Both the position numbers and the translations under genes were made by a program. DNA of 32,000 nt, from positions 1 to 32,000 of the forward strand of contig CAZHRT010000010.1 in the NCBI GenBank assembly GCA_964534665.1, written 5' to 3'. Position 1 is the stretch's first letter, and each line of letters begins with the position of its first letter. Of the stretch, positions 6,681 through 24,958 are shown piece by piece. The notes below the pieces were generated by a model. The model was not told the DNA's origin and made no database searches. It worked only from the letters and a program-made list of their open reading frames with translations. Origin of the DNA: an uncultured Methanosarcinales archaeon. GTDB taxonomy: Archaea > Nanobdellota > Nanobdellia > Woesearchaeales > JAHJBD01.

Positions 6681-6744
6681 GATTTATGTAAACACACACT
6701 TGTTTTTAAAGTTTTTGAAAAAAGATATAAATGAGTAGATATTA

Positions 6745-7137
6745 ATGGTTTTTATGAATATAACAAAGCACAGGGTTAGGTATGCAGACACTGATCATTT
6801 TGGGGTTGTGTATTATGCTCGTTATTTAGATTGGTTTGAAGCTGGTAGAACAGAAATTTTGCGTGATCAAGGAATTACATACGCCGATTTAGAAAAAAAA
6901 GGTATGTTTGCCCCTGTTGTTGAGATTAAAGTTGAATATAAGAAACCTGCTAAGTATGATGATGTAGTTGAATTAGAAACTACGATAGATAAGATAGGGA
7001 ATTCTAGTATTAAGTTTAATTATAAAGTATTTAATTCTAAAAAAGAATTGTTGTGTGAAGCGTATACAGTTAATGTGTTTATTGATAAAGATATGAAACC
7101 TGTAAGAATTCCAGATAATATTCGTGCTATTGAATAA
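6745..7137 (+). CDS. Acyl-CoA thioesterase, hotdog fold (YbgC/4HBT class)
   Basis: 130 aa. RVRYADTDHFGVVYYARYLDWFEAGRTEILR matches the catalytic-Asp N-terminal region of YbgC-type thioesterases. The start could be the second ATG, at 6757 (MNITKH...). Confidence 0.85.
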   Translation: MVFMNITKHRVRYADTDHFGVVYYARYLDWFEAGRTEILRDQGITYADLEKKGMFAPVVEIKVEYKKPAKYDDVVELETTIDKIGNSSIKFNYKVFNSKKELLCEAYTVNVFIDKDMKPVRIPDNIRAIE

Positions 7138-10313: not shown

Positions 10314-10318
10314 TTTAA

Positions 10319-13622: not shown

Positions 13623-13642
13623 CGATTATAATACATTAAAAG
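13610..13642 (+). repeat. Left copy of the duplicated korA/korB junction (relic korB start)
   Basis: AAATGGAATGTAA (13610-13622) matches AAATGAAGTGTAA (15751-15763) at 11 of 13 positions. ACATTAAAAG (13633-13642) is identical to 15765-15774. Read from the ATG at 13612, it encodes MECNDYNTLK, compared with the real KorB N-terminus MKCKTLK. Confidence 0.55.
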
Positions 13643-13649
13643 TATATAG

Positions 13650-14606
13650 GTGTATACTGTGGTAATAGCACTAGTAACTGGTGGGGCAGGATTTATTGGG
13701 AGCCATTTAGTAGAAGATTTAGTTGAGAAAGGATATCAAGTAAAAGTTATTGATAGTTTAATTAAAGGTAAAAGTGCAACAATTCAAAAGTTAATTGATC
13801 AAGGTAAAGTTGAATTTTTTGAAGGAGATATAAAAAATAGGGATAGTGTTGATAAAGCTATGAAGAATGTAGATTATGTTTTTCATACTGCAGGTACACA
13901 TATAATTAATTGTGGTAAAAGTCCGGAAGATGCAATTGAGTGTAATGTTCATGGAAGTTACAATGTGTTCAAATCTGCATTAGATAATAATGTTAAAAGG
14001 GTAATTTTTAGTTCAAGTTCAAGCATATATGGGGAACCAAAAAGTTTACCTATGTCTGAAGATAGTGAACTGAATATTGTAGAACCCTATGCTGCAAGCA
14101 AACAAATGGCTGAACATCTATTGAAATTTTTGGGAACTAAAGGATTGAAATATAATATATTAAGATATTTTAATGTTTATGGCTCAAGACAAGCTGTGCA
14201 TGCTTACTATACAACTGTCGTGATAGATTTTATTAATAAATTGATGAATGATGAATCACCAATTATTAACGGAAAAGGTGATCAAAGTCTAGACTTTACA
14301 CATGTAAGTGATGTTGTAAAAGGAAATATAGCTGCAGCTGAATCTACGGTTGAGAATGAAATATTTAATATTGGAACTGGACAAAGTACATCTATTGCTG
14401 ATCTTGCAAAAATGATTATCAAAACTTTAGGTAAAGATATTGAACCCAGATTTAGGGATAGAAAAGTTTTGGTAACAAGAAAAAAAGCTGACACAATTAA
14501 AGCTGAAAAAATACTTGGATTTAAATCTCAAGTTTCTATTGAAGAAGGTATAGCAAAAATTACTAAAGAAATTGCTGAGAATCCTGAATTATATAAAGGT
14601 AGATAA
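13650..14606 (+). CDS. NAD-dependent nucleotide-sugar epimerase/dehydratase (extended SDR)
   Basis: 318 aa with TGGAGFIGSHL and the YAASK catalytic pair. The start may instead be the GTG at 13659, in which case the GGTG spanning 13649-13652 would serve as its RBS. Confidence 0.85.
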   Translation: MYTVVIALVTGGAGFIGSHLVEDLVEKGYQVKVIDSLIKGKSATIQKLIDQGKVEFFEGDIKNRDSVDKAMKNVDYVFHTAGTHIINCGKSPEDAIECNVHGSYNVFKSALDNNVKRVIFSSSSSIYGEPKSLPMSEDSELNIVEPYAASKQMAEHLLKFLGTKGLKYNILRYFNVYGSRQAVHAYYTTVVIDFINKLMNDESPIINGKGDQSLDFTHVSDVVKGNIAAAESTVENEIFNIGTGQSTSIADLAKMIIKTLGKDIEPRFRDRKVLVTRKKADTIKAEKILGFKSQVSIEEGIAKITKEIAENPELYKGR

Positions 14607-14608
14607 GA

Positions 14609-15763
14609 ATGCTAGAAATAAATGATAAGATATGGAAAATTCCTTTATTCCAAACGTATTGGGATGAAAATGATGTTGAAGCTATTAATGAAGTAGTTAG
14701 AAGGGGGAGCTCCTGGGCAACTGGACCTGAGGTTGTCGAGTTTGAAAAAAAAATCGCTGAATTTAATGAAAGAAAATATGCTTTGGCTTTTAATTCTGGA
14801 ACAAGTGCTTTGCATGCAATGTTGCTTGCATATGATGTTAAAGGTAAAGAAGTAATTGTACCCTCATTTACTTTTATTGCTACGGCAAATGCAGTTGTAT
14901 TAGCTGGTGGAAAGCCAATTTTTGCTGAATCTGAAGATGAAACATTTGGATTAGATGCAGAAGATGTTTTATCTAGAATAAATAAAAATACTGCTGCAAT
15001 CTTAACTTTAAACTATGGTGGAGGAGTTTCAAAAGATATTGAAAAATTAAAGCAGATTGCTGATGAGAAAAACATATTATTACTAGAAGACAATGCACAT
15101 TCTTTTGGTGTAAAGAAAAATGGTAAAATGTGTGGAACATTTGGGCAAGCAGCTGCATTAAGCTTTTGTCAGAATAAACTAATAACTACTGGTGAAGGTG
15201 GTGCTGTGGTTACAGATGATGAAAAAATATTTGAAAAAATTAAGTTGATTAAAAGCCATGGAAGAATTAAAAATTCTAAAGAAGATTTTTCATCAATTAA
15301 AAATTATGGGTATGTGGAAGTGGGTTATAATTATAAGATACCTACAATGGGGGCGGCTTTAGGACTCTCACAACTTAATAAATTTGAAAAAATAATGAAT
15401 TTAAGAATTGAAGCTGGAACAAGATTAAATGATGGGATAAAAGAATTTGTTAAAGTATCTGAACCTTATGAAAATTCTGACCACTTTTTTCAAAAATATA
15501 CTATTATGCTTAATAATAATGAAACCAGAGATAAACTACAATTATTTTTAAGAGATAAAGGCATAATGAGTAAAGTTTACTATGAACCTATCCATCTAGA
15601 AAATATTTATAGAGATAATTATGGTTATAAAGAAGGGGATTTGCCTAAAACAGAAGCAATGTCTAAGAAAATCCTTACCTTGCCTATGTGGCCAGGTATT
15701 TCAAATAATGATATAGATTATATAATTAATTCAATCAAGGAGTTTTTTAAAAATGAAGTGTAA
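14609..15763 (+). CDS. DegT/DnrJ/EryC1-family PLP-dependent sugar aminotransferase
   Basis: 384 aa with NSGTSALHAMLLA, DNAHSFG and SFCQNKLITTGEGG (PLP lysine context). Its last 11 nt overlap the korB start. Confidence 0.85.
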   Translation: MLEINDKIWKIPLFQTYWDENDVEAINEVVRRGSSWATGPEVVEFEKKIAEFNERKYALAFNSGTSALHAMLLAYDVKGKEVIVPSFTFIATANAVVLAGGKPIFAESEDETFGLDAEDVLSRINKNTAAILTLNYGGGVSKDIEKLKQIADEKNILLLEDNAHSFGVKKNGKMCGTFGQAAALSFCQNKLITTGEGGAVVTDDEKIFEKIKLIKSHGRIKNSKEDFSSIKNYGYVEVGYNYKIPTMGAALGLSQLNKFEKIMNLRIEAGTRLNDGIKEFVKVSEPYENSDHFFQKYTIMLNNNETRDKLQLFLRDKGIMSKVYYEPIHLENIYRDNYGYKEGDLPKTEAMSKKILTLPMWPGISNNDIDYIINSIKEFFKNEV

Positions 15764-15774
15764 GACATTAAAAG
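15751..15774 (+). repeat. Right copy of the duplicated korA/korB junction (functional korB start)
   Basis: See the left copy at 13610-13642. The DegT C-terminus (KNEV-stop) mirrors the KorA C-terminus (LNGM-stop) at the nucleotide level. Confidence 0.55.
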
Positions 15775-16481
15775 ATGATGGGATGCATTATTGTCCTGGT
15801 TGTGGGCATACTCAAGTGCATAGAATGATTGCTGATCTAATTGATGAATTAGGTATCCGAGAAAAAACTATTGCTTCTGCACCAGTTGGTTGTGCAGTAT
15901 TATTTTATAATTATTTTAATGTTGATGTTATTGAATGTGCACATGGTCGTGTTCCTGCTGTCATGGGCGCTATAAAAAAAGTTAATCCTGATAAGTTTGT
16001 TTTATGTTACCAAGGGGATGGTGATTTAGCGGCAATTGGTACAACTGAAACAATACATACTGCTAACCGTGGAGAAAACTTAACTGTTATTTTTATCAAT
16101 AATGCAATTTATGGTATGACTGGTGGTCAAATGGCACCTACAACTTTACCAGGACAAATTACAACTACAACACCAAAAGGAAGAGGGAATAATAATGAAG
16201 GATTACCTCTTAAGGTTTGTGAATTATTAAGCGTACTTGGAGGTCCAACATACATTGAAAGATGTGCAGTAAATAGTGCTGAGAATATGAAGAAAACTAA
16301 AGAAGCCATCAAAAAAGCAATTCAATGCCAATTAGAAGGTAAAGGTTATAGTTTTATAGAGATATTGTCTGGCTGTCCAACCAACTGGAAAGTTAGTGTA
16401 AAAGATTCTATTGGCTTTATTGATAAGATGATTGAATATTTCCCATTAGGTGTTTTCAAGGATGTAAGAAATGAGAGATGA
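15753..16481 (+). CDS. 2-oxoacid:ferredoxin oxidoreductase, beta (TPP-binding) subunit
   Basis: 242 aa with YCPGCGH and YQGDGDLAAIGTTETIHTANRGENLTVIFINNAIYGMTGGQ (TPP/Mg site). Confidence 0.9.
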   Translation: MKCKTLKDDGMHYCPGCGHTQVHRMIADLIDELGIREKTIASAPVGCAVLFYNYFNVDVIECAHGRVPAVMGAIKKVNPDKFVLCYQGDGDLAAIGTTETIHTANRGENLTVIFINNAIYGMTGGQMAPTTLPGQITTTTPKGRGNNNEGLPLKVCELLSVLGGPTYIERCAVNSAENMKKTKEAIKKAIQCQLEGKGYSFIEILSGCPTNWKVSVKDSIGFIDKMIEYFPLGVFKDVRNER

Positions 16482-17001
16482 AATTAAGATAGCAGGTTAT
16501 GGTGGACAAGGGGTTGTCTTAGCTGGAAGTTTGATAGCTAACACTGCAATGCGTCAAGGATTGTATACTTGCGGCATGGTATCTTATGGTGCTGAAATGA
16601 GGGGAGGAACAGCAAACTCAACTGTAATAGTAAGTGATAAACCAATAAGTAGCCCAATTGTTATAATGCCAAATGTTGTATTAATATTAAATGAACCTTC
16701 TCTTAAGAAATTTGAAGAGAGTGTAGAAAAAGGTGGTGTTATAATTATTAATACATCAGAATGTAAGAAAAAAGTTTCTAGACAAGATATTGAAATTGTT
16801 GAGGTTGCTGCAACAGATGCTGCAGTAGAACTGGGAAATAAGAAAGTTACAAATATGGTCATGGTTGGAGCATATATTAAGAAAAAAGGTTCAATAAGAT
16901 TAGAAGAAGCCATAAAGAATCTAGATGTTGTAATCAAGAGAAAAGAATTGATTGATATTAATAAAAAAGCTTTGGAAAAAGGTGGGGAATTATGTATGTA
17001 A
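16471..17001 (+). CDS. 2-oxoacid:ferredoxin oxidoreductase, gamma subunit
   Basis: 176 aa. IKIAGYGGQGVVLAGSLIA is typical of the gamma subunit/domain. It overlaps korB by 11 nt and the next thiolase by 10 nt. No delta (2x[4Fe-4S]) subunit gene is present in the window. Confidence 0.85.
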   Translation: MRDEIKIAGYGGQGVVLAGSLIANTAMRQGLYTCGMVSYGAEMRGGTANSTVIVSDKPISSPIVIMPNVVLILNEPSLKKFEESVEKGGVIIINTSECKKKVSRQDIEIVEVAATDAAVELGNKKVTNMVMVGAYIKKKGSIRLEEAIKNLDVVIKRKELIDINKKALEKGGELCM

Positions 17002-18128
17002 AAGGTGTTGGTTGTACACCATATAGGATTCATGAGAAAAAATCACATATGTTAGCTTATGATGCGATTAGTCAAGCCTTAAAAGATGCTGATACGTCTT
17101 TAGATAAGATTGATGGTATTGTTTGTAGTACGTTAGAATGGTTTTTTACTGAGGAAAATCAAAGACATTTTGCTGCAATGCTTTCTGGTTTGTTAAAAAC
17201 TAATAAACCAATAATAAGGGTGCCTGCTGCTTGTGCTGGAGGGGGAACAGCCTTATGGACAGCTAATAAAATGGGATTTGATAATGTATTGGTTGTTGGT
17301 GTTGAAAAACTACATGGACATACAAGAAATACTGATATGATTACAAAAGAATTTGGTATGGCTGCTGAATCTAAATGGGAGCAAACTGAAGGTGTTAATT
17401 TTCCTGGAGAAAATGCTTTAGTTGCACAAGCATACCTTAACAAATTTCCCGAAACAACTATGAATGATCTTGCTTTGATATCGTTAAAGAATCATGAAAA
17501 TGCTTTTTTAAATCCTAATGCTTATTTTTATGGGAAAAAAGTTAACTTGGATCAAATTAAGAATTCACCAATAATAACTTCGCCATTAAGATTATTTGAT
17601 TGTAGTGTAAGTGTTGATGGGGCTGCAGCTGTTGTTTTATCTAAAGATAAAACAGATGTTAAAATTGCAGGGTCATCATTATGTTCTGATTACCTTCCGC
17701 CTTTTGAAAGGGATGATATGACAACATGGGAAGGAACATTAAGAACTGGCAATGAAGTTTTTGAGCAAACAGGTTTAGAAAGAAGTGAGATTGATTTTGC
17801 TGAATTACATGATGCTTTTACAATAGTTGAACTATTAACATACGAAGATCTTGGTTTTTGTAAGAAAGGGGAAGCGTATAAAATGATTAGGGATGGTAGA
17901 TTTAAGATTGATGGAAAGATGCCTGTAAATGTTTCTGGTGGATTAAAAGCTAAAGGGCATCCTGTTTCTGCAACTGGTCTTGGAATGATATATGAGATTG
18001 TTAAACAAATACGTGGTGAATCTGGTGATAGACAAATTAGTAAAACTAGAAATGCGCTTGCCCATAATATTGGTGGAGCAGGTGGTACAACCGCCGTACA
18101 CATACTAAAGAAAATTGGAGGGGTTTAA
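16992..18128 (+). CDS. Thiolase-fold acyl-CoA C-acyltransferase, paralogue 2
   Basis: 378 aa, roughly 55-60% identical by eye to the protein at 10319-11443. Shared blocks include IIRVPAACAGGGTALWTAN, NHENAF, YGKKV, LRLFDCSVSVDGAAAVVLSKDKTDVKIAGS, YEDLGFCKKGE and SGGLKAKGHP. No DUF35 partner is adjacent. Confidence 0.85.
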   Translation: MYVKGVGCTPYRIHEKKSHMLAYDAISQALKDADTSLDKIDGIVCSTLEWFFTEENQRHFAAMLSGLLKTNKPIIRVPAACAGGGTALWTANKMGFDNVLVVGVEKLHGHTRNTDMITKEFGMAAESKWEQTEGVNFPGENALVAQAYLNKFPETTMNDLALISLKNHENAFLNPNAYFYGKKVNLDQIKNSPIITSPLRLFDCSVSVDGAAAVVLSKDKTDVKIAGSSLCSDYLPPFERDDMTTWEGTLRTGNEVFEQTGLERSEIDFAELHDAFTIVELLTYEDLGFCKKGEAYKMIRDGRFKIDGKMPVNVSGGLKAKGHPVSATGLGMIYEIVKQIRGESGDRQISKTRNALAHNIGGAGGTTAVHILKKIGGV

Positions 18129-18875
18129 ATGGAAGACTTAAAAGGTAAAACTGCATTAATAACTGGTGGTTCTCAAGGTATAGGTAAAGCTATTGCTATA
18201 GCAATGGCAAAAGAGGGTGCTAATATTATTATCAATGATATTGAACCTGCAAAAGAAGGGGCTGAAGCAACAGTTGCTGAATTAAAAGAATTTGGTGTTG
18301 ATGCTATGGCAGCTTATGCAGATGTTTCAGATTTTGAACAAGTTAAATCTATGGTTGAACAAATTAAAGAAAAATTCCCAGTAATTAATGTATTGGTAAA
18401 TAATGCAGGAATAACTAAAGATAGAACATTAAAAAAGATGACTCCTGAAGAATGGAATGCTGTAATAAATGTTAATCTTAATTCAATCTATAATGTAACG
18501 CATAATGTTTTGGGGCTTATACCTGAAGGTGGTTCGATTATATCTTTATCTTCTATTGCTGGAGTTGGAGGAAATTTTGGACAGTGCAATTATGCATCAA
18601 CTAAAGCCGGGATTATTGGATTTACAAAGTCTCTTGCAAAAGAGTTAGGAAAAATGAAGATTACTGTTAATGCGATTGCCCCAGGATTTATCAAAAGTAA
18701 GATGACTGATAAAATCCCTGTAATGATGCTTGATCAAATATTGGACTTAATACCTTCAAAAGAGATGGGACAGCCTGAAGATGTTGCTAATTTAGCAGTG
18801 TTTTTGGCATCTAATAAGGGTAAATATGTAAATTCTCAAGTAATCAGAGTAGATGGCGGCATGATGTTTGGTTGA
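18129..18875 (+). CDS. fabG: 3-oxoacyl-thioester reductase, classical SDR (FabG / PhaB acetoacetyl-CoA reductase type)
   Basis: 248 aa with TGGSQGIGKAIA, NNAGIT and S...YASTKAG. The segment KKMTPEEWNAVINVNLNSIYNVTHNV resembles CoA-dependent PhaB at least as much as ACP-dependent FabG. Confidence 0.9.
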   Translation: MEDLKGKTALITGGSQGIGKAIAIAMAKEGANIIINDIEPAKEGAEATVAELKEFGVDAMAAYADVSDFEQVKSMVEQIKEKFPVINVLVNNAGITKDRTLKKMTPEEWNAVINVNLNSIYNVTHNVLGLIPEGGSIISLSSIAGVGGNFGQCNYASTKAGIIGFTKSLAKELGKMKITVNAIAPGFIKSKMTDKIPVMMLDQILDLIPSKEMGQPEDVANLAVFLASNKGKYVNSQVIRVDGGMMFG

Positions 18876-18927: not shown

Positions 18928-20082
18928 TTGGATTTTAATTATACTAAAAAACAATTAATGCTTTACCACACTATTAGGAATTTTGTAGAGAAAGAAATTA
19001 TTCCTTATGCTCAAGATATTGATCATGAAGAAATATTTCCAATCGAACAAATTAAGAAATTAGCTAAGATGGGCGTTATGGGGATGTCTATACCTAAAAA
19101 GTATGGTGGGGCTGAACTTGATAATGTTTCTCAAACTATAATTATGGAAGAAGTTAGTCGTGCTTGTGCTTCAACTTCTGTTACAATGGGGGCACATACT
19201 TCTTTATGTTGTTATCCAATTGTAAATCATGGTACTAATGCTCAAAAAGAAAGGTGGTTACCTAAACTTGCTTCAGGCGAGTGGTTAGGTGCTTTTGCGC
19301 TTACAGAACCAAATGCTGGTTCTGATGCTGTTAATGTACAAACAACTGCTGTTAGAGATGGAGACGATTACATAATTAATGGTAACAAAGTTTTTATTAC
19401 AAATGGTGGAAAATGTGATTTTGTTCCAATTGTTTGTACAACTGATCCTTCTGCTAAACATAAGGGATTAGCTATTTTTGGGATTGAAACAAAAAATACT
19501 CCAGGATTTAAAGTTGGGAAGAAAGAGGATAAGCTGGGTTTAAGAGGTTCAAATACTTGTGAACTTGTGTTTGAAGATATGCGTGTTCCAAAAGAAAATT
19601 TAGTTAGTGGTAAAGAAGGCGAAGGCTTTAAGATTTCTATGGGTGTATTTAATTCTGGAAGGATTGGAATTGGAGTACAGGGTGTTGGAATTGCACAAGC
19701 AGCATTTGATGAATGTATGAAATATGTTAGTGAAAGAGAACAGTTTGGAAGGCCTTTAAAGAAATTTCAAGCTATACAGTTTCAGATGGCTGAAATGGCA
19801 ACTAAAATTGAAGCTGCTCGTTTATTATGTTTGAAAGCTGCACATGTAAAAGATCAAGGTAAAAATTATATCAAACATGCTGCAATGGCTAAATATTATG
19901 GAAGCGATGTTTCAATGGAAGTTACAAGACAAGCTATACAAATACATGGTGGTTATGGTTATATGAAAGATTATCCATTAGAAAGATTTTACAGAGATGC
20001 AAAGATTACTGAGATTTATGAAGGTACAACAGAAATCCAAAAATTAGTTATTGGAAATGAATTGTTTGGGAGAGGTTTTTAA
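18928..20082 (+). CDS. Acyl-CoA dehydrogenase (short-chain/butyryl-CoA dehydrogenase-like)
   Basis: 384 aa with GAFALTEPNAGSDA, ITNG and IYEGTTEIQ. It uses a TTG start with GGGGA 7 nt upstream. Confidence 0.9.
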   Translation: MDFNYTKKQLMLYHTIRNFVEKEIIPYAQDIDHEEIFPIEQIKKLAKMGVMGMSIPKKYGGAELDNVSQTIIMEEVSRACASTSVTMGAHTSLCCYPIVNHGTNAQKERWLPKLASGEWLGAFALTEPNAGSDAVNVQTTAVRDGDDYIINGNKVFITNGGKCDFVPIVCTTDPSAKHKGLAIFGIETKNTPGFKVGKKEDKLGLRGSNTCELVFEDMRVPKENLVSGKEGEGFKISMGVFNSGRIGIGVQGVGIAQAAFDECMKYVSEREQFGRPLKKFQAIQFQMAEMATKIEAARLLCLKAAHVKDQGKNYIKHAAMAKYYGSDVSMEVTRQAIQIHGGYGYMKDYPLERFYRDAKITEIYEGTTEIQKLVIGNELFGRGF

Positions 20083-20085
20083 TGA

Positions 20086-20131
20086 CTCAAAAATTCTTTT
20101 TTGAGGGATTGGAAATCACCAAAGGTGATTT
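20086..20131 (+). promoter_or_regulatory. Two consecutive stem-loops in the 52-nt acd-etfB spacer; the second covers the etfB RBS
   Basis: CTCAAAAA-TTCT-TTTTTGAG (20086-20105) begins 4 nt after the acd stop. AAATCACC-AAA-GGTGATTT (20113-20131) follows, and its GGTGA lies 6 nt upstream of the etfB ATG at 20135. Confidence 0.4.
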
Positions 20132-20134
20132 TCA

Positions 20135-20917
20135 ATGAACATCATTGTTTGTGTAAAACAAGTACCTGATACAAATGATATTAAGATTGATCCTGTTAAA
20201 GGGACTTTAATTAGAGAGGGAGTTCCATCAATTATCAATCCAGAAGATAATAATGCTATTGAGGCGGCTTTGCAAATAAAAGGTGAAGGTAAAGTTACTG
20301 TTCTTTCAATGGGGCCACCACAAGCTGAAGAAGCTTTAAGGGAAGCTATTGCAATGGGTGTTGATGAAGCTATTCTTGTCTCAGATTTTAAGTTTGCTGG
20401 TTCTGATACATGGGCAACTGCAAATGTATTGGCAAGTGCTGTTAAGAAATTAGACTATGACCTAATAATTTGTGGAAGGCAAGCAATTGATGGGGATACT
20501 GCACAAGTGGGTCCCCAATTAGCTGAAAATTTGGGTTTACCACAAATCACTTATGTTCAAAAAATTGAAGTTGGAGAGGGTGTATTAAAAGTTCAAAGAG
20601 CTCTTGAAGATGGATATGAAATAATAGAAGGAAAGTTGCCTGTTTTAATAACCGTAGTAAAAGAAATTAACAATCCAAGATATCCAACATTACAAGGAAT
20701 TGATAAAGCTTATGAAACTGATATTATTAAATGGACAGCAGATGATATTGAAGCAGATCCTGCAAAAATTGGACTTAAAGGTTCTCCAACACATGTAAAA
20801 AAGAGTTTTGTTCCTCCTGGAAAAGGCCAAGGAATAAAATTAGATGGACCTACTAAAGATATTGCAAAACAATTAATTGGAATCTTAAAAGAAAAAGAGA
20901 TTATCCAAGAATTTTAA
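20135..20917 (+). CDS. etfB: Electron-transfer flavoprotein, beta/small subunit (bifurcating-type signature)
   Basis: 260 aa with MNIIVCVKQVPD and GRQAIDGDTAQVGPQLAENLGLPQITYV. Confidence 0.9.
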   Translation: MNIIVCVKQVPDTNDIKIDPVKGTLIREGVPSIINPEDNNAIEAALQIKGEGKVTVLSMGPPQAEEALREAIAMGVDEAILVSDFKFAGSDTWATANVLASAVKKLDYDLIICGRQAIDGDTAQVGPQLAENLGLPQITYVQKIEVGEGVLKVQRALEDGYEIIEGKLPVLITVVKEINNPRYPTLQGIDKAYETDIIKWTADDIEADPAKIGLKGSPTHVKKSFVPPGKGQGIKLDGPTKDIAKQLIGILKEKEIIQEF

Positions 20918-20918
20918 A

Positions 20919-22088
20919 ATGGTAAAAATAAAATTAACTGATAATTATCCTGGATCAACACTTACAATAGATGGTGTTATGCTTAGTTTAGGAGATGATT
21001 TTGTTGATGTTGAGAAATCATTAGATTTACAGCAAGCACTTAATAATGGTTATGTTGAAATTCAAGAAGAAAAAGAAGAGAATAAAGTTGAGGAAGTAAA
21101 AGAAGGTGAAGAAGTTTGGATTTTTGCAGAACAGCGTGCAGGAAAATTTGCTAGAGTTGCACTTGAGCTTTTAGGAAAAGCACGTGAGTTAGCAGATCAT
21201 CAAGGTGTTAAAGTTGGTGCTTTGTTATTATGTGATAAAGATTGCGGATTATCCTCAGAATTAATTTCTAGGGGTGCAGATAAAGTTTATCTAGCTGAAT
21301 CTGAGAAATTTAAGAATTATGAAACTTTAAATTTTACTAAAACTATTTGTGAAATTATAAATAAAGAAAAACCTCAAATTGTAATATATGGTGCAACACA
21401 TATTGGTAGAGATTTAGCACCAAGAATTGCTCAAAGGATTGCAACTGGTTTAACTGCTGATTGTACTGGTTTAAACATTGATGAAGATGGTTTATTGATA
21501 CAAACAAGGCCTGCTTTTGGTGGGAACTTAATGGCTGAAATTAAATGTCCTGAACATAAACCTCAAATGTCTACTGTAAGACCAGGTATTATGAAAATGC
21601 TTGACAAGACAGAAAGAGAAGGTTCTGTTGTTAAATGTGAAATTTCACTTGAGGAAGATGATAGAATCAAAGTTTTAGAAGTAATTAAAGAAACTAGGAA
21701 AGTTGCTAATCTTGAAGAAGCTGAAATAATTGTGTCTGGTGGACGAGGTGTTGGAAGTCCTGAAAATTTTAAACTTATTGAAGAGTTAGCAAAAGAGTTG
21801 GGTGCTGAGATTGGAGCGTCACGTGCAGTTATTGATGCTGGTTGGGTTCCAAAAGATCATCAAGTTGGACAAACAGGTAAAACAGTAACACCAAAATTAT
21901 ATTTGGCTTGTGGAATTTCTGGTGCTATTCAGCATAGGGCTGGAATGCAAAATTCTGATACAATTGTTGCTATTAATAAAGATCCTAATGCGATGATTTT
22001 TTCTGTTGCTGATTATGGCATTGTTGGTGATTTAAACAAGGTTATTCCGGCTTTAATTGAAGAGCTTAAGAATGGCAAAACTTTATAA
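20919..22088 (+). CDS. etfA: Electron-transfer flavoprotein, alpha/large subunit with a ~65-aa Cys-free N-terminal extension
   Basis: 389 aa. The canonical EtfA begins at VWIFAEQRAGKFARVALELLGKAREL. The C-terminal FAD domain shows SGGRGVGS, ASRAVIDAGW and QVGQTGKTVTPKLYLACGISGAIQH. Confidence 0.9.
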   Translation: MVKIKLTDNYPGSTLTIDGVMLSLGDDFVDVEKSLDLQQALNNGYVEIQEEKEENKVEEVKEGEEVWIFAEQRAGKFARVALELLGKARELADHQGVKVGALLLCDKDCGLSSELISRGADKVYLAESEKFKNYETLNFTKTICEIINKEKPQIVIYGATHIGRDLAPRIAQRIATGLTADCTGLNIDEDGLLIQTRPAFGGNLMAEIKCPEHKPQMSTVRPGIMKMLDKTEREGSVVKCEISLEEDDRIKVLEVIKETRKVANLEEAEIIVSGGRGVGSPENFKLIEELAKELGAEIGASRAVIDAGWVPKDHQVGQTGKTVTPKLYLACGISGAIQHRAGMQNSDTIVAINKDPNAMIFSVADYGIVGDLNKVIPALIEELKNGKTL

Positions 22089-22113: not shown

Positions 22114-22755
22114 ATGAAACCAAGTTTTGTTACAAAATTAAGTATACGGCTTGCCAAACTATGGGTAAGAAATATCTCTGGTCTAGAGAATATTCCAGAT
22201 AATGGCAAGTTTATAATCGCAGCAAACCATTCTAGTTTTTTAGATGATTTTCTAATGCCTGGAATTGCAATACTAAAAATAAAAAAACTTGTACATATGT
22301 ATTGTAATGATAGGTTCTATAAAAATAAAATCTTTGCAGCATATCTAAATTCTTCTCAGTGCATACCCATTTCAATACAGACAAAGAATAAAGATACTAA
22401 CAAAAAAGCTTTTGAAACAGCATTAAATCATCTTAAAAACAACGAACCAATAGGCATCTTCCCAGAAGGTGGCCGTTCTAAGAATGGTGAACTTAAGGAA
22501 GCAAGAACAGGAATTGCAAAACTTGCATTAACAGCAAAAGTTCCTATATTACCTATTGGACTCGCAGGTTCATATGATGTATTTCCTAGGAATGTAAAAT
22601 TTCCAAAATTTAAACGATGTGAGATAAAAATAGGTAAGCCAATTTACTTGGATAAATATTATGAAGAATCAGATAACCAGAAAGTTCTTAAAGATATAAC
22701 TACAAAAATAATGAAAGAAATAGCTAAATTAACCGGACAGGAGTATAATTATTAA
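22114..22755 (+). CDS. PlsC-family (LPLAT) glycerol-phosphate/lysophosphatidate acyltransferase, paralogue 1
   Basis: 213 aa with the H-x4-D motif in AANHSSFLDDF, FPEGGRS and VPILPIGL. Confidence 0.8.
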   Translation: MKPSFVTKLSIRLAKLWVRNISGLENIPDNGKFIIAANHSSFLDDFLMPGIAILKIKKLVHMYCNDRFYKNKIFAAYLNSSQCIPISIQTKNKDTNKKAFETALNHLKNNEPIGIFPEGGRSKNGELKEARTGIAKLALTAKVPILPIGLAGSYDVFPRNVKFPKFKRCEIKIGKPIYLDKYYEESDNQKVLKDITTKIMKEIAKLTGQEYNY

Positions 22756-22756
22756 A

Positions 22757-23389
22757 ATGGTATATTTAATTTCAAAAAAGATTATATCTGGAATAATGAA
22801 GTTCTGGACAAAAGAAGTTATTGGATTAGAAAATCTTCCAAAAAAAAAGTTTGGGTTCATTGTAGCTGCTAATCATGGAAGTTATTTAGATCATTTTTTT
22901 ATTGGAACTATTATAACACCTAAACTTAATAGGGCAATACATTTTTTAGCTAAAAAAGAGCACTTTGATAGTTTTATACAAAGAAAATGGCATAATTACC
23001 TTCAAGCTATTCCAATTGATAGGCAGGCTGGTGGTAAAGAAGCGTTAAAACATGCTATTGATGCATTGCAAGAAGGCAAAATCATCTCAATTTATCCAGA
23101 AGGAACAATAACATTAACAGGAAAAATTCAAGAAGGTAAAACCGGTGTTGCTAGGTTAGCTATTGCTGCTAAAGTTCCTGTTTTACCAATTGGAATAAAT
23201 GGATCATTTGAAATACTACCAAAAGGTAAATGGATACCTAAATTTAAAAGAGCAACAATTAAAATAGGAAAATTAATGTATTTTGATAAATATTATGGGA
23301 AAGATGAAGATAGAAAAGTTACAAGAGAAGTAACGGATAATATTATGAAAGAAATAGGAAAGTTAGCAGGAAAGAGGTATAAAGAATGA
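22757..23389 (+). CDS. PlsC-family (LPLAT) acyltransferase, paralogue 2
   Basis: 210 aa with the H-x4-D motif in AANHGSYLDHF, YPEGTIT and VPVLPIGI. It starts 1 nt after paralogue 1 and is about 40% identical to it by eye. Confidence 0.8.
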   Translation: MVYLISKKIISGIMKFWTKEVIGLENLPKKKFGFIVAANHGSYLDHFFIGTIITPKLNRAIHFLAKKEHFDSFIQRKWHNYLQAIPIDRQAGGKEALKHAIDALQEGKIISIYPEGTITLTGKIQEGKTGVARLAIAAKVPVLPIGINGSFEILPKGKWIPKFKRATIKIGKLMYFDKYYGKDEDRKVTREVTDNIMKEIGKLAGKRYKE

Positions 23390-24357
23390 TTGCTGTAATT
23401 GGTGCTGGGTCTTGGGGAACAACACTTGCTAGAATTCTAGCTTTGAATGGGCATTCGGTAAAGTTGTGGGTTAGAGAAAAAGAATTATTTGATATTCTAG
23501 AAAAAGAAAAAGAGAATACTTGGTTTTTAAAAGGTATTAAATTACCAAATAATATTACTTTTGTTAATGATTTTAAAAAAGTTAATGGTTGTGAATATGT
23601 TGTTACTGCCATACCTTGTCAATATGTTCGTGGTGTATTAACTAAGTTCGCACCTTTTATATCTAAGAATGCAAAAATAATTAATGTTGCAAAAGGAATT
23701 GAACAAGGAACTTTCAAAAGGATTTCTTCAATAATAAAAGAGATTTTACCAAATAAGATTGTTGCTGTTATGTCTGGACCTAATCATGCTGAAGAAGTAA
23801 GTAAAGAATTGCCAACTGCAACAGTAATTGCACATAAAGACAAAAGTGTTTGTGAAGAATTTTGTAAGTTATTTGCAACATCCAATTTTAAAGTTTATCC
23901 ACATGATGATATTATTGGTGTGGAAGTATGTGCGGCTGTAAAAAATATTACTGCAATTGCAACTGGTGTTGTTGCAGGGATTGGTTTTGGTGATAATGCG
24001 ATGGGTGCAATAATGACTTATGGATTAATGGAAATGAATACTGTTGCAAAATTCTTAGGTGGAAAACAAAAAACAATCTATGGTCTTGCAGGGGTTGGTG
24101 ATTTAATTGCAACTTGTAGTTCTAAACATAGTAGAAATAGGTTTACTGGTCAAAAGATTGCAGAAGGCAAAAGTTATGATGAAATCTACAAAGAAATGGG
24201 TGGCATGGTAGCTGAAGGTGTCCATACTGCTAAAGCTGTTCATGAATTTGCTATTAAGAATGAACTTAACTTACCATTAACTACTCAAACATACAAAGTA
24301 TTATTTGAAAATAAAAATTTAAAAGAAGCAGTATCAGATTTAAAAAATCTGATATGA
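23386..24357 (+). CDS. gpsA: NAD(P)H-dependent sn-glycerol-3-phosphate dehydrogenase
   Basis: 323 aa with IAVIGAGSWGTTLA, NVAKGIE, SGPNHAEEV, AAVKNITAIATG and GLAGVGDLIATCSSKHSRNRFTGQKIAEG. It aligns closely by eye with E. coli GpsA along its whole length. There is a 4-nt overlap with plsC paralogue 2. Confidence 0.9.
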   Translation: MIAVIGAGSWGTTLARILALNGHSVKLWVREKELFDILEKEKENTWFLKGIKLPNNITFVNDFKKVNGCEYVVTAIPCQYVRGVLTKFAPFISKNAKIINVAKGIEQGTFKRISSIIKEILPNKIVAVMSGPNHAEEVSKELPTATVIAHKDKSVCEEFCKLFATSNFKVYPHDDIIGVEVCAAVKNITAIATGVVAGIGFGDNAMGAIMTYGLMEMNTVAKFLGGKQKTIYGLAGVGDLIATCSSKHSRNRFTGQKIAEGKSYDEIYKEMGGMVAEGVHTAKAVHEFAIKNELNLPLTTQTYKVLFENKNLKEAVSDLKNLI

Positions 24358-24358
24358 A

Positions 24359-24958
24359 TTATTCTTCACTAAAATCGTCTATGCTTCCTTTGAATTCTTC
24401 ATTTTTAGTAATAACTTTCCTTGCTTTAAGATATTCTCTAGCTAAAATCCAGAAAAATAAACCTAGACTTTTCTTTCCTTTGTTATTGCAGGGAATAACC
24501 AAGTCAATATTATTTGACTGGTTATTTGTATCACAAAGTGCCAGAACCGGAATTCCAACTTTAATTGCATCAAGAATTGCGTTTCTATCAGGCCAGCTAT
24601 CTGTAACTAGAATAACCTTTTTTTCTTGAAATATACTTAAACTTGAATTTGTAAGCATTCCTGGAGGATATCTTCCTGCAACAACTTCAACACCTGTCGC
24701 TTTACTAAATGCTTTTACTGATTTCCAACCATTTTCCCTTCTTGATACAATTAAGATGTCTTCGGGTTCATAATGAGATAAAAAGTTTGCAGCAATTTGT
24801 ATTCTTTCATTAATTTTTTGAAGGTTCAAAACTGATAAACCATCAGGTCTTGTTTTGTAAATGAATTGTTCCATGTATCTTGTTTTGAATTTTGTACCTA
24901 TATGGATCCCTGATTTTAGGTATAAATCTTGTGCTACTAAAAATTGTTCATCTGCCAT
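24359..24958 (-). CDS. rps2: Ribosomal protein uS2 (archaeal/eukaryotic SA type)
   Basis: 199 aa with LKSGIHIGTKFKTRYMEQFIYKTRPDGLSVLNLQKINERIQIAANFL and RYPPGMLTN. It converges on gpsA with a 1-nt gap. Confidence 0.9.
   Translation of the reverse strand: MADEQFLVAQDLYLKSGIHIGTKFKTRYMEQFIYKTRPDGLSVLNLQKINERIQIAANFLSHYEPEDILIVSRRENGWKSVKAFSKATGVEVVAGRYPPGMLTNSSLSIFQEKKVILVTDSWPDRNAILDAIKVGIPVLALCDTNNQSNNIDLVIPCNNKGKKSLGLFFWILAREYLKARKVITKNEEFKGSIDDFSEE

What the first reader, a model, noticed from the sequence alone, without database searches (positions are those of the whole stretch)
22114..24357. gpsA translationally coupled to two tandem plsC paralogues: a minimal G3P-diacyl backbone module with no PlsB/PlsX/PlsY
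Seen: three genes are packed with a 1-nt gap and a 4-nt overlap. Both acyltransferases keep the H-x4-D and (F/Y)PEG motifs. GpsA aligns end-to-end with bacterial GpsA, including GDL..TC....SRNR.

Inference: the two diverged PlsC-type enzymes (~40% identity by eye) could divide the labour between the sn-1 and sn-2 positions. If they use acyl-CoA directly, that fits the CoA-based chemistry upstream. In an archaeon this would produce the 'wrong' glycerophosphate stereoisomer.
Basis: partly seen in the sequence, partly recalled or inferred. Interest (0 to 1): 0.85.

Follow-up and report, generated by a model that had tools for sequence, protein, structure and literature searches.

The report
Archaeal operon for bacterial-type lipid backbone
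A tiny DPANN archaeon carries a conserved three-gene operon, sitting at the end of a large fatty-acid gene cluster, that looks able to build the bacterial-type glycerol-3-phosphate diacyl lipid backbone, which would put it on the "wrong" side of the archaea/bacteria lipid divide.

Summary
Three genes lie at 22114-22755 (AT1), 22757-23389 (AT2) and 23386-24357 (GpsA), with a 1-nt gap and an ATGA overlap. The two PF01553 acyltransferases are 41% identical, and GpsA is bacterial-type with its catalytic residues intact.

The host is a Woesearchaeales-type DPANN archaeon. AT1-AT2-gpsA, next to archaeal uS2/RadA/RPA, recurs in seven further divergent DPANN contigs examined. It occurs in none of 76 bacterial gpsA loci. 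It ends a 16-gene same-strand array (FabZ-like, two thiolases, pyruvate:ferredoxin oxidoreductase, FabG-like, acyl-CoA dehydrogenase/EtfAB). Acetyl-CoA carboxylase genes lie just upstream.

New details:
- AT2 keeps every phosphate-binding residue known from PlsC (Lys66, Arg89, Arg118).
- The AT1 clade has lost two of them (Asn for Lys, Val/Ile for the motif II Arg).
- Both lack PlsC's membrane-inserted N-terminal helix.
- This assembly alone carries R118I in AT2. It is the only mismatch in 18.6 kb against independent assemblies.

The "division of labour" idea is plausible and now has a sequence basis, but it is untested. Genome-wide absence of PlsY, CdsA or the G1P pathway could not be checked. 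GpsA and PlsC in Woesearchaeota were already reported; the operon and paralogue anatomy appear undescribed in the literature I could search.

The parts
22114..22755 (+). AT1: PlsC-fold acyltransferase, 213 aa. This is the divergent paralogue. It has HX4D (H39/D44), EGGR and the motif IV Pro. It lacks the motif II Arg and the equivalent of TmPlsC K105. Candidate first-step (G3P) acyltransferase.
   Evidence: PF01553 1.3e-25. TmPlsC 5KYM 9e-13. AF2 pLDDT 93, Foldseek 5KYM TMq 0.69 and plant GPAT 1IUQ TMq 0.72. Clade statistics. No TM helix, pI 9.7.
22757..23389 (+). AT2: PlsC-fold acyltransferase, 210 aa. This is the canonical paralogue. It has HX4D (H40/D45), K66, D88-R89, EGT[R] and the motif IV Pro. 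Candidate LPA (sn-2) acyltransferase.
   Evidence: PF01553 2.4e-26 and TIGR00530 82.6 bits, below the 103 cut-off. 5KYM 9e-18. AF2 pLDDT 87.5, Foldseek 5KYM TMq 0.73. Across 135 clade members: H, D, E, G 135/135; R89 134/135; R118 133/135.
23108..23110 (+). Codon ATA (Ile118) in AT2 where AGA (Arg of the EGTR motif) is expected. G->T at 23109, seen only in this assembly.
   Evidence: L001-L006 all carry AGA. It is the only mismatch in 18,615 bp against L001/L002. The exact I118 protein is on a single NCBI contig.
23386..24357 (+). GpsA: NAD(P)H-dependent sn-glycerol-3-phosphate dehydrogenase, bacterial type.
   Evidence: PF01210 and PF07479; NF000942 382 bits against a 257 cut-off. T. maritima 1Z82 234 bits versus A. 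fulgidus 1TXG 116 bits. Catalytic residues conserved.
18928..22088 (+). Acyl-CoA dehydrogenase (18928-20082), EtfB (20135-20917) and EtfA (20919-22088). Best matches are the clostridial acryloyl-CoA reductase AcrC/B/A, so this is a probable NADH-dependent enoyl-CoA reductase.
   Evidence: Conserved directly upstream of AT1 in L007, L008, L091, L092 and the JGI 400-kb contig. EtfA carries a ferredoxin domain in L092.
16992..18875 (+). Archaeal-type thiolase 2 (16992-18128) and FabG-like 3-oxoacyl reductase (18129-18875).
   Evidence: NF009466 FabG 254.6 bits, above the 222 cut-off.
12570..17001 (+). 2-oxoacid:ferredoxin oxidoreductase alpha (12570-13622), beta (15753-16481) and gamma (16471-17001). 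In this lineage the genes are interrupted by an epimerase (13650-14606) and a DegT aminotransferase (14609-15763).
   Evidence: The alpha, beta and gamma genes are contiguous in L007, L008 and L091.
9813..12566 (+). FabZ-type dehydratase (9813-10313), thiolase 1 (10319-11443) and a DUF362 protein (11436-12566).
   Evidence: NF000582 FabZ 119.6 bits, above the 113 cut-off. The same trio occurs in L009, L091 and the JGI 400-kb contig.
4408..9668 (.). Acyl-CoA carboxylase set: carboxyltransferase (4408-5931 +), BCCP (5933-6313 +), YbgC-type acyl-CoA thioesterase (6745-7137 +), biotin ligase (7127-7792 -) and biotin carboxylase AccC (7779-9668 -).
   Evidence: TIGR00514 accC 653.9 bits, above the 626.5 cut-off. 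Biotin carboxylase is also adjacent in L009 and the JGI 400-kb contig.
24359..24958 (-). Archaeal ribosomal protein uS2, convergent, ending 1 nt after the gpsA stop. It is the conserved boundary and host marker of the operon.
   Evidence: uS2 follows gpsA in L007-L010, L091, L092 and the JGI contig.

Best explanation
AT1-AT2-gpsA is the conserved final operon of a fatty-acyl lipid biosynthesis super-cluster in Woesearchaeales-type DPANN archaea.

Proposed mechanism:
1. GpsA reduces DHAP to sn-glycerol-3-phosphate with NAD(P)H. Enzyme identity is shown; the direction is inferred.
2. Two soluble or peripherally bound PlsC-fold acyltransferases then esterify G3P twice to give phosphatidic acid (inferred). 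AT2 keeps all LPA-phosphate-binding residues of PlsC, so it is the 1-acyl-G3P (sn-2) acyltransferase. AT1 has a remodelled acceptor site and performs the first acylation of G3P. It would thereby replace PlsB or PlsX/PlsY, as PlsM partly does in mycobacteria.
3. Acyl donors are thioesters, most likely acyl-CoA, made by the co-transcribed thiolase / FabG-like / FabZ-like / ACAD-EtfAB enoyl reductase set. That set is fed by pyruvate:ferredoxin oxidoreductase and acetyl-CoA carboxylase (inferred from gene content).

The genes were acquired from bacteria early in this lineage, and the acyltransferase was duplicated within it (inferred). Because PlsC-type enzymes are not strictly stereospecific, the physical coupling to gpsA would fix the G3P configuration of the product.
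For: Gene identities.

Operon anatomy: tight spacing at the end of a 16-gene co-directional array with gaps of 52 nt or less.

Conservation:
- Order and paralogue orthology are conserved across DPANN lineages whose GpsA is only 46-57% identical to the window's (L007-L010, L091, L092, JGI 3300072015).
- At least 20 more contigs carry both a GpsA and an AT hit. This is inferred from identical longest-contig lengths.
- The arrangement is absent from 76 bacterial gpsA loci.
- Archaeal informational genes are on the same contigs, so this is not bacterial contamination.

Paralogue divergence:
- AT2 clade: K66 27/27, R89 134/135 and R118 133/135.
- AT1 clade: Asn at the K position in 83/93 and Val/Ile at the motif II Arg position in 88/93. 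EGxR is retained.
- In TmPlsC, K105 and R159 bind the LPA phosphate, and motif II/III Arg mutations abolish LPAAT activity (PMC6688108).

Architecture: there is no TM helix, the proteins are basic (pI 9.7-9.9), and there is a single amphipathic N-terminal helix with HX4D at residue 39/40. PlsM likewise has no TM domain and has HX4D at H41 (PMC10593935).

Precedent and stereochemistry:
- PlsM acylates G3P and LPA with acyl-CoA in an organism lacking PlsX/PlsY.
- PlsC and PlsY accept both stereoisomers (PMC13400652).

Synthesis direction:
- AccC, carboxyltransferase, BCCP and BirA are adjacent.
- ACAD/Etf is closest to enoyl-CoA-reducing AcrABC, and EtfA is fused to ferredoxin in L092.
- No acyl-CoA synthetase is present in the window.

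Literature: the DPANN genomes surveyed, including Woesearchaeota, have GpsA but no G1P dehydrogenase (PMC5059525).
Against: - There is no biochemical, expression or lipid data for any of these proteins.
- AT1's loss of two cationic acceptor-site residues could equally mean a non-phosphorylated or different acceptor. Known GPATs also use Arg/Lys to bind G3P.
- The rest of the genome could not be searched, so PlsY, CdsA/PgsA/Pss, ACP/KAS, or a G1P ether-lipid pathway may exist. Some DPANN MAGs have PlsY homologues.
- FabZ and FabG types normally act on acyl-ACP, but no ACP or ketoacyl synthase is in the locus. Neither the carrier nor the user of malonyl-CoA is explained.
- Both ATs score below the TIGR00530 cut-off.
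- DPANN archaea are generally thought to take lipids from their hosts.
- Coleman et al. 2019 judged archaeal PlsC/PlsY unlikely to work in membrane synthesis.
- In this particular assembly AT2 carries R118I, which should cripple it if the variant is real.
Confidence: 0.5

Rival explanations
1. Salvage and remodelling rather than de novo synthesis. The DPANN cell obtains lysolipids, fatty acids or whole lipids from a bacterial or archaeal host. It uses AT1 and AT2 as lysophospholipid acyltransferases with different head-group or position preferences to re-acylate and tailor them. GpsA only tops up G3P or balances redox.
For: - NCBI names many clade members 'lysophospholipid acyltransferase family protein'.
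- The best NCBIfam matches include Aas-type acyl-[ACP]-phospholipid acyltransferases.
- An alpha/beta-hydrolase with a GxSxS motif sits inside the operon in L010.
- The lifestyle of DPANN fits, and Woesearchaeota carry murein-lytic proteins that suggest bacterial hosts (PMC8204110).
- AT1's altered acceptor site fits a non-LPA lysolipid.
Against: - Strict linkage to gpsA and to a complete chain-building set plus acetyl-CoA carboxylase is hard to explain for pure salvage.
- No acyl-CoA/ACP synthetase or fatty-acid kinase, needed to activate scavenged fatty acids, was found in the locus.
Confidence: 0.22
2. Only AT2 works on the G3P pathway, as an ordinary PlsC downstream of an unlinked PlsY or another GPAT. 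AT1 has been recruited to a different acceptor. Candidates are monoacyl- or diacylglycerol (neutral lipid), a glycolipid or amino-lipid precursor, or a lipid anchor for the glycoconjugates made by the neighbouring glycosyltransferases.
For: - AT1 has lost the K105-equivalent Lys and the motif II Arg. Both are conserved in LPAATs and are needed for phosphate binding or activity.
- PF01553 includes OlsA-, GlsA- and PatA-type enzymes, and weak NCBIfam hits to OlsF and GlsA were seen.
- GT2/GT21-like and ArnT-like glycosyltransferases flank the cluster.
- A PlsY homologue is listed for one Woesearchaeota MAG.
- AT-HAD phosphatase fusions exist among relatives.
Against: - AT1 keeps the EGxR Arg, which contacts the phosphate in TmPlsC.
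- AT1 is always immediately upstream of AT2-gpsA.
- PlsX has not been found in Archaea, so PlsY would lack its acyl-phosphate donor.
- No PlsY was found in about 52 kb around the operon.
Confidence: 0.18
3. A catabolic cluster. Thiolases, ACAD/Etf, hydratase and dehydrogenase run beta-oxidation of scavenged fatty acids, GpsA oxidises G3P released from lipids, and the acyltransferases are incidental.
For: ACAD, Etf and thiolase are classic beta-oxidation enzymes. Archaeal GpsA has been linked to glycerol metabolism in the literature (PMC6431249).
Against: - Acetyl-CoA carboxylase, BirA, FabZ/FabG-type enzymes and pyruvate:ferredoxin oxidoreductase point to synthesis.
- ACAD/Etf is closest to enoyl-CoA reductases.
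- No acyl-CoA synthetase, ETF:quinone oxidoreductase, lipase or GlpK/GlpD is in the window.
- GpsA is the biosynthetic type.
- Two conserved acyltransferases have no role in catabolism.
Confidence: 0.07

Closest known systems
[quoted passage not shown]
   Same: Same fold (Foldseek TMq 0.69 and 0.73). All four acyltransferase motifs are present in the AT2 clade, and the K105/R159-equivalent phosphate binders are conserved in AT2. Size is similar to the alpha/beta domain.
   Different: - Both DPANN enzymes start about 37-45 residues later than E. coli PlsC and TmPlsC, so they lack the membrane-inserted first helix of the two-helix motif.
- Both fall below the TIGR00530 cut-off.
- AT1 lacks the motif II Arg and the K105 equivalent.
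- They occur as an obligate tandem pair fused in an operon to gpsA, in an archaeon.
Mycobacterial PlsM/PlsB2 pathway (Angala et al. 2023, PMC10593935)
   Same: PlsM is a PlsC-type enzyme without transmembrane domains and with HX4D near residue 40. It uses acyl-CoA donors and acylates G3P itself as well as LPA. Phosphatidic acid is made without PlsX/PlsY.
   Different: Mycobacteria still have PlsB-type enzymes, whereas here both candidates are PlsC-type paralogues. Orthology to PlsM was not tested. PlsM is not linked to gpsA or to fatty-acid synthesis genes.
Bacterial GpsA (NAD(P)H-dependent G3P dehydrogenase) and archaeal GpsA of Archaeoglobus fulgidus (PDB 1TXG)
   Same: Full-length match, both domains, catalytic Lys/Asn/Asp/Thr/Arg conserved, and above the NCBIfam subfamily cut-off.
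   Different: It is much closer to bacterial GpsA (234 bits to T. maritima; about 44% identity to Bacillota) than to the A. fulgidus enzyme (116 bits). In bacteria gpsA is not preceded by two plsC genes.
Earlier surveys of bacterial lipid genes in Archaea (Yokobori 2016 PMC5059525; Villanueva 2017; Coleman 2019 PMC6431249; Castelle 2021 PMC8204110)
   Same: These already report GpsA in Woesearchaeota, PlsC and PlsY homologues in DPANN, absence of G1PDH in DPANN, and bacterial fatty-acid genes plus G3PDH near MEP-pathway genes in Woesearchaeota.
   Different: They are presence/absence and single-gene-tree studies. None of those I could read describes the AT1-AT2-gpsA operon, the two conserved paralogue clades, their motif differences, or the link to the ACAD/Etf-thiolase-ACC cluster. 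Coleman et al. concluded a membrane-synthesis role was unlikely.
CoA-dependent archaeal fatty acid synthase of Sulfolobus acidocaldarius (Schmerling et al. 2024, bioRxiv 10.1101/2024.07.05.601840)
   Same: Thiolase-based, ACP-independent chain building with a ketoacyl reductase, a dehydratase and an enoyl-CoA reductase in an archaeon.
   Different: - There is no DUF35 partner here; a DUF362 protein sits next to the thiolase instead.
- The dehydratase and reductase are FabZ/FabG types.
- The enoyl reductase is ACAD/EtfAB rather than an MDR enzyme.
- An acetyl-CoA carboxylase is present.
- The Sulfolobus pathway is not linked to glycerolipid acyltransferases, and DPANN were not mentioned in that paper.

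Membership tests
GpsA (NAD(P)H-dependent glycerol-3-phosphate dehydrogenase) | N-terminal NAD-binding and C-terminal G3PDH domains, with a score above the curated family cut-off | tested here: met
   PF01210 3.5e-52 and PF07479 1.7e-51. NF000942 382 bits (cut-off 257) and NF000940 313 bits (cut-off 202).
GpsA (NAD(P)H-dependent glycerol-3-phosphate dehydrogenase) | Catalytic/substrate residues (human GPD1 K120, K204, N205, D260, T264, R269; the residue roles are from my own knowledge of the GPD1 structures) | tested here: met
   K103, K186, N187, D239, T243 and R250 align with them. They are invariant in 32 DPANN homologues.
GpsA (NAD(P)H-dependent glycerol-3-phosphate dehydrogenase) | DHAP reduction to sn-G3P in vivo | not testable with these tools
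   Needs an enzyme assay or complementation of a gpsA mutant.
PlsC / AGPAT-type glycerolipid acyltransferase (PF01553) | Motif I, NHx4D catalytic dyad | tested here: met
   AT1 NHSSFLD and AT2 NHGSYLD. H and D are 135/135 in the AT2 clade, and H is invariant in A2.
PlsC / AGPAT-type glycerolipid acyltransferase (PF01553) | Motif II conserved Arg (xDR / FxxR) | tested here: not met
   This verdict applies to AT1, where Val/Ile replaces Arg in 88/93 sequences. AT2 meets the feature: IPIDR, with R in 134/135.
PlsC / AGPAT-type glycerolipid acyltransferase (PF01553) | Motif III EGTR, whose Arg binds the phosphate of LPA | tested here: inconclusive
   AT1 has EGGR, with R at 90% or more. The AT2 clade has EGTR in 133/135, but this window's AT2 reads EGTI (R118I), a singleton variant.
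PlsC / AGPAT-type glycerolipid acyltransferase (PF01553) | Motif IV conserved Pro after hydrophobic residues | tested here: met
   VPILPI in AT1 and VPVLPI in AT2, aligned with E. coli VPIIPV.
PlsC / AGPAT-type glycerolipid acyltransferase (PF01553) | Lys equivalent to TmPlsC K105 (LPA phosphate binding) | tested here: not met
   This verdict applies to AT1, which has Asn in 83/93 sequences and never Lys. AT2 meets the feature: K66 in 27/27.
PlsC / AGPAT-type glycerolipid acyltransferase (PF01553) | N-terminal two-helix membrane motif (TmPlsC) or N-terminal hydrophobic anchor (E. coli PlsC) | tested here: not met
   Query residue 20 aligns with TmPlsC residue 65. E. coli PlsC has 37 extra N-terminal residues. 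Only one amphipathic helix precedes the core (H5-17 in AT1, H2-14 in AT2). Maximum KD19 hydropathy is 1.45.
PlsC / AGPAT-type glycerolipid acyltransferase (PF01553) | Score above the curated AGP_acyltrn (TIGR00530) cut-off | tested here: not met
   65.2 bits (AT1) and 82.6 bits (AT2) against a cut-off of 102.95. Pfam PF01553 is passed (90 and 92 bits against 23).
PlsC / AGPAT-type glycerolipid acyltransferase (PF01553) | 1-acyl-G3P acyltransferase activity and sn-2 regiospecificity | not testable with these tools
   Needs in vitro assays or complementation of plsC(ts).
PlsB / PlsX / PlsY first-step systems | Presence of a PlsB, PlsX (PF02504) or PlsY (PF02660) gene | tested here: not met
   None found among the annotated ORFs (>=90 aa) of the 32-kb window or the called genes of the 10 kb on each side. 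Absence from the whole genome was not tested.
Mycobacterial PlsM-type dual G3P/LPA acyltransferase | PlsC-type enzyme without TM domains and with HX4D near residue 40 | tested here: met
   H39/H40, no TM segment. PlsM has H41-D46 and no TM (PMC10593935).
Mycobacterial PlsM-type dual G3P/LPA acyltransferase | Acyl-CoA-dependent acylation of G3P; orthology to Rv2182c | not tested
   No PlsM sequence was compared, and activity is not testable here.
Bacterial type II fatty acid synthase | ACP, ketoacyl-ACP synthase and malonyl-CoA:ACP transacylase together with FabG, FabZ and an enoyl reductase | tested here: not met
   FabZ-type (119.6 bits, cut-off 113) and FabG-type (254.6 bits, cut-off 222) enzymes are present. 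No ACP motif occurs in any frame, and no KAS or FabD is in the window.
Archaeal CoA-dependent FAS (Sulfolobus type) | Ketothiolase/DUF35 pair scaffolding the reductase and dehydratase | tested here: not met
   Two archaeal-type thiolases are present but there is no DUF35 ORF. A DUF362 protein is the conserved thiolase neighbour.

The most novel reading that the evidence does not exclude
A whole order of archaea (Woesearchaeales-type DPANN) makes bacterial-type diacyl-sn-glycerol-3-phosphate membrane lipids de novo. It does so by a route unlike any bacterial one. Fatty acids are built on CoA (or an unknown carrier) by a thiolase/FabG/FabZ/ACAD-Etf hybrid pathway. Both acylations are carried out by a lineage-specific pair of N-terminally truncated PlsC paralogues. 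One of these, AT1, has been re-engineered into the missing G3P acyltransferase. gpsA is hard-wired into the operon to set backbone chirality.
Probability: 0.3. Interest if true: 0.85.

Novelty: new variant of a known kind. Interest (0 to 1): 0.62.

Why it matters
The lipid divide (G1P isoprenoid ethers in Archaea, G3P fatty-acyl esters in Bacteria and Eukarya) is central to models of early cell evolution and eukaryogenesis. Scattered bacterial lipid genes in archaeal MAGs have so far been dismissed as patchy and probably non-functional.

Here the backbone dehydrogenase, two differentiated acyltransferases and a full acyl-chain-building set are held together in one conserved gene array. That array sits next to archaeal core genes across a large, abundant clade. 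Conservation of this kind is much stronger evidence of function than presence/absence tables.

It also yields a small, directly testable system: three genes and about 750 residues in total. If AT1 proves to be a PlsC-derived G3P acyltransferase, it would be a further solution to the first committed step of phospholipid synthesis. It would also be a compact acyl-CoA-dependent phosphatidic-acid module of use for synthetic cells.

Tried and rejected
- Bacterial contamination or mis-binning: rejected. The operon is flanked by archaeal uS2, RadA and RPA on long contigs in several lineages. L007 is labelled Methanosarcinales but has the DPANN synteny, so that label is probably wrong.
- Recent transfer: no compositional anomaly was seen (GC 0.29-0.32 against 0.26-0.37 across the window).
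- A hidden ACP in the locus: none found. The 75-aa ORF at 6453-6680 is a hydrophobic peptide, and no G-x-D-S-L motif occurs in any frame.
- RNA elements: there are no tRNAs and no Rfam hits in the window.
- Using structure to tell GPAT from LPAAT: not discriminating. Both models hit TmPlsC first and plant GPAT next, with similar TM-scores.
- Fused two-domain acyltransferases as 'Rosetta stone' support: such fusions exist, but both of their domains keep the motif II Arg and neither domain is specifically AT1-like or AT2-like. They are independent events and carry little weight.
- Genome-wide search for PlsY, CdsA or G1PDH in the same organism: not possible.
- Nearest bacterial donor: unresolved. 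Bacterial GpsA hits plateau at 40-45% identity across Bacillota, Nitrospirota, Desulfobacterota and others. The representative search carries no taxonomy.
- Literature searches for Woesearchaeota or DPANN combined with acyltransferase, PlsY or CdsA found no operon-level description. Subscription-only papers such as Villanueva et al. 2017 could not be read.

Full report
**Observation.** AT1 is at 22114-22755 (213 aa), AT2 at 22757-23389 (210 aa) and GpsA at 23386-24357 (323 aa), all on the + strand. AT1's TAA stop is followed by one base and then AT2's ATG. AT2's stop overlaps gpsA's start as ATGA. Both acyltransferases match Pfam PF01553 (E about 1e-25) and are 41% identical over 200 residues. 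They carry NHx4D and F/YPEG. GpsA has both G3P-dehydrogenase domains and passes the NCBIfam GpsA subfamily cut-offs (382 bits against 257). It aligns end to end with solved bacterial enzymes (T. maritima 1Z82, 234 bits). K103, K186, N187, D239, T243 and R250 align with the active-site residues of human GPD1.

**Host and context.** GC content is about 31%. Immediately downstream on the opposite strand lie archaeal uS2, a YjbQ protein, RadA and an RPA-like protein. GpsA, AT1 and AT2 homologues in public data that carry names are called Woesearchaeota, Nanoarchaeota or Nanoarchaeia. The host is therefore a DPANN archaeon of the Woesearchaeales type.

The three genes are the last members of a 16-gene co-directional array from 9813 to 24357, with intergenic gaps of 52 nt or less. 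Its members, in order, are:
- a FabZ-type dehydratase;
- an archaeal-type thiolase;
- a DUF362 protein;
- 2-oxoacid:ferredoxin oxidoreductase alpha;
- an epimerase and a DegT aminotransferase;
- oxidoreductase beta and gamma;
- a second thiolase;
- a FabG-type reductase;
- an acyl-CoA dehydrogenase with EtfB and EtfA, whose best matches are the clostridial acryloyl-CoA reductase AcrCBA;
- AT1, AT2 and GpsA.

Just upstream are a carboxyltransferase, BCCP, a YbgC-type acyl-CoA thioesterase, biotin ligase and AccC biotin carboxylase. The finding is thus the tail of a roughly 20-kb lipid super-cluster rather than an isolated minimal module. No ACP, ketoacyl synthase, PlsB/X/Y, CdsA, G1P dehydrogenase or GGGP synthase was found among the annotated ORFs of the window or the called genes of the 10 kb on either side.

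**Conservation.** The exact GpsA occurs on more than 24 contigs from JGI, ENA and Logan assemblies with the same neighbours. More telling are the divergent relatives:
- In four GTDB genomes whose GpsA is only 46-57% identical to the window's (L007-L010), the order AT1-orthologue, AT2-orthologue, GpsA, then convergent uS2 is kept. Each paralogue matches its own counterpart best.
- The same holds for L091, L092 and a 400-kb JGI contig, usually with the whole thiolase/FabG/ACAD/Etf block upstream.
- Variations are informative. L010 has an alpha/beta-hydrolase between AT2 and gpsA. L092 has a ferredoxin-fused EtfA, a FabK-like NMO protein, CoA-transferases, and DXP reductoisomerase next to gpsA. 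The last echoes Castelle et al. 2021, who noted bacterial G3PDH and fatty-acid genes near MEP genes in Woesearchaeota.
This is an inference.
- None of 76 bacterial gpsA loci has a tandem AT-AT-gpsA. At most one plsC lies several kb away.

AT1 and AT2 are closer to each other (41%) than to any bacterial PlsC seen (35% or less). The duplication therefore probably happened within the DPANN lineage after a single acquisition (inference).

**The two acyltransferases.** Both match T. maritima PlsC as the only solved relative by sequence (E 9e-13 and 9e-18). Confident AlphaFold models (pLDDT 93 and 87.5) superpose best on it (TMq 0.69 and 0.73). The next matches are plant soluble GPAT, PatA and human GPAT1.

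Both begin about 45 residues later than TmPlsC and 37 later than E. coli PlsC, and the ORFs cannot be extended. Only one amphipathic helix precedes the core. No segment is hydrophobic enough for a membrane span, and both proteins are strongly basic. They therefore lack the membrane-inserted helix of the PlsC two-helix motif and are probably peripheral enzymes (inference).

Clade-wide statistics separate the paralogues sharply.
- The AT2 clade keeps HX4D in 135 of 135 sequences, the motif II Asp-Arg in 134 of 135, EGTR in 133 of 135, and Lys66 in 27 of 27 sequences. Lys66 corresponds to TmPlsC K105.
- The AT1 clade keeps HX4D and EGxR. It has Asn instead of that Lys in 83 of 93 sequences and Val/Ile instead of the motif II Arg in 88 of 93. 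These are followed by a Lys-rich insertion and an invariant Asn.
- According to the literature, K105 and the EGTR Arg bind the LPA phosphate in TmPlsC. Mutating the motif II or motif III Arg strongly inhibits mammalian LPAAT (PMC6688108).

AT2 thus looks like a standard LPA acyltransferase, and AT1 has a remodelled acceptor site. It does not show that AT1's acceptor is G3P.

**A singleton mutation.** In this window AT2 reads EGTI. Codon 23108-23110 is ATA where six independent assemblies have AGA. Across 18,615 bp the window differs from those assemblies at exactly this one base. The Ile form is recorded on a single NCBI contig. It is either an assembly or sequencing error or a rare allele that should cripple AT2. 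Experiments should use the Arg118 sequence (P0124).

**Mechanism.** The best-supported reading runs as follows.
1. GpsA makes sn-G3P from DHAP.
2. AT1 and then AT2 acylate it to phosphatidic acid.
3. The thioester donors come from the co-transcribed chain-building enzymes, which are fed by pyruvate:ferredoxin oxidoreductase and acetyl-CoA carboxylase.

Only the family identity of the proteins and their genomic coupling are shown. Substrates, order, donor and direction are inferred.

Three points favour synthesis over degradation. An ATP-dependent carboxylase with its biotin ligase is present. The ACAD/Etf resembles enoyl-CoA-reducing complexes. No acyl-CoA synthetase or ETF:quinone oxidoreductase is in the window.

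There is an experimental precedent for the key step. Mycobacterial PlsM is a PlsC-type enzyme without transmembrane domains and with HX4D at H41. It uses acyl-CoA to acylate both G3P (at sn-2) and 1-acyl-G3P, in an organism lacking PlsX/PlsY (PMC10593935). PlsC and PlsY accept both glycerophosphate enantiomers whereas PlsB does not (PMC13400652). A PlsC-only pathway would therefore depend on its G3P supply for chirality, which gives the gpsA coupling a rationale (inference).

Several things remain unexplained. FabZ- and FabG-type enzymes normally need ACP, but none is nearby. No enzyme that would use malonyl-CoA is obvious. A conserved DUF362 protein sits beside the thiolase, where Sulfolobus has DUF35.

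**Rivals.**
1. Salvage or remodelling of host lipids by two lysophospholipid acyltransferases. This fits the DPANN lifestyle and the hydrolase in L010, but fits poorly with the tight link to gpsA and a full synthesis set.
2. AT2 acts as an ordinary PlsC behind an unlinked PlsY or other GPAT, with AT1 working on another acceptor. Neighbouring GT2/GT21-like and ArnT-like glycosyltransferases hint at glycolipids. One Woesearchaeota MAG has a PlsY homologue, but PlsX is unknown in Archaea.
3. A beta-oxidation/glycerol catabolic cluster, which is the least likely.

**What is known.** GpsA in Woesearchaeota, together with absence of G1PDH in the DPANN genomes surveyed, was reported in 2016 (PMC5059525). 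PlsC and PlsY homologues in DPANN were reported in 2019, with the verdict that they are patchy, known only from MAGs and unlikely to work in membrane synthesis (PMC6431249). Castelle et al. 2021 and the 2024 ODZ study noted FabG/FabI/FabZ and bacterial G3PDH in Woesearchaeota. I found no description of the AT1-AT2-gpsA operon, of the two paralogue clades and their motif differences, of the N-terminal truncation, or of the linkage to ACAD/Etf, thiolases and ACC. Subscription papers could not be searched. I therefore rate it a new variant of a known kind. The parts are familiar families, but the architecture is distinctive: a PlsC-only, gpsA-coupled pathway welded to a hybrid fatty-acid cluster in an archaeal clade.

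**Verdict.** Even so, the conserved operon is stronger evidence for functional bacterial-type lipid synthesis in an archaeal lineage than the presence/absence data in the papers I read. It also makes the question directly testable with three small genes. Interest 0.62.

Noticed in passing
window 23108-23110 (G->T at 23109): AT2 carries Ile118 instead of the EGTR arginine. This is the only base difference in 18.6 kb between this window and six independent assemblies of the same population. It is unique among 135 AT2-clade sequences.
   Followed up: yes
window 4408-9668: A complete acyl-CoA carboxylase set lies just upstream of the array: carboxyltransferase, BCCP, and AccC with a roughly 130-aa N-terminal extension, plus biotin ligase and a YbgC-type acyl-CoA thioesterase. 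No ketoacyl synthase or ACP that would use malonyl-CoA is nearby.
   Followed up: partly
window 13650-15763: An NAD-dependent sugar epimerase/dehydratase and a DegT-type aminotransferase are inserted between the alpha and beta subunits of the 2-oxoacid:ferredoxin oxidoreductase. In relatives (L007, L008, L091) the three subunit genes are contiguous.
   Followed up: partly
window 11436-12566; also L007, L009, L091, JGI 400-kb contig: A DUF362 protein of about 375 aa is a conserved neighbour of the thiolase in this cluster. It occupies the position that a DUF35 scaffold protein has next to ketothiolases in other archaea. Its function is unknown.
   Followed up: no
window 1059-2315 and L087 11244-15220: Two tandem GT2/GT21-like glycosyltransferases (GT21 includes lipid glycosyltransferases) are followed by two ArnT/PMT-like membrane glycosyltransferases at the left edge of the lipid cluster. 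A possible link to glycolipid synthesis is speculative.
   Followed up: no
L010 4862-5629: In a groundwater Woesearchaeota relative, a 255-aa protein with a lipase/esterase-like G-T-S-L-S motif is inserted between AT2 and gpsA.
   Followed up: no
L092 (GCA_019322485.1) 1-12844: In this Woesearchaeota genome EtfA has an N-terminal ferredoxin domain. Four CoA-transferase genes and a FabK-like NMO protein precede the cluster. DXP reductoisomerase (bacterial MEP pathway) lies between gpsA and uS2. The window's EtfA instead has a Cys-free, roughly 65-aa acidic N-terminal extension.
   Followed up: partly
L007 (CAZDZV010000001.1): This 277-kb contig is labelled 'uncultured Methanosarcinales archaeon' but carries the full DPANN-type cluster and synteny. 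The label is probably a mis-binning or mis-classification.
   Followed up: no
representative library hits P0356, P0391, P0399, P0403, P0422, P0372; P0379, P0381, P0396, P0410: Relatives of unknown taxonomy include single polypeptides with two PF01553 acyltransferase domains, and acyltransferase-HAD phosphatase fusions. The double-domain proteins are not AT1+AT2 fusions, because both of their domains keep the motif II Arg.
   Followed up: partly
window 3688-4371 and 25540-26604: Two RecA-family genes are present: a full RadA with an HhH domain and a short RadB-like paralogue (227 aa).
   Followed up: no
window 26605-26913 and 28669-31730 (and L089 1-10000): A run of conserved genes has no Pfam match. 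It includes an 801-aa protein and, just outside the window, a 1482-aa protein. The run is shared across assemblies of this population.
   Followed up: no
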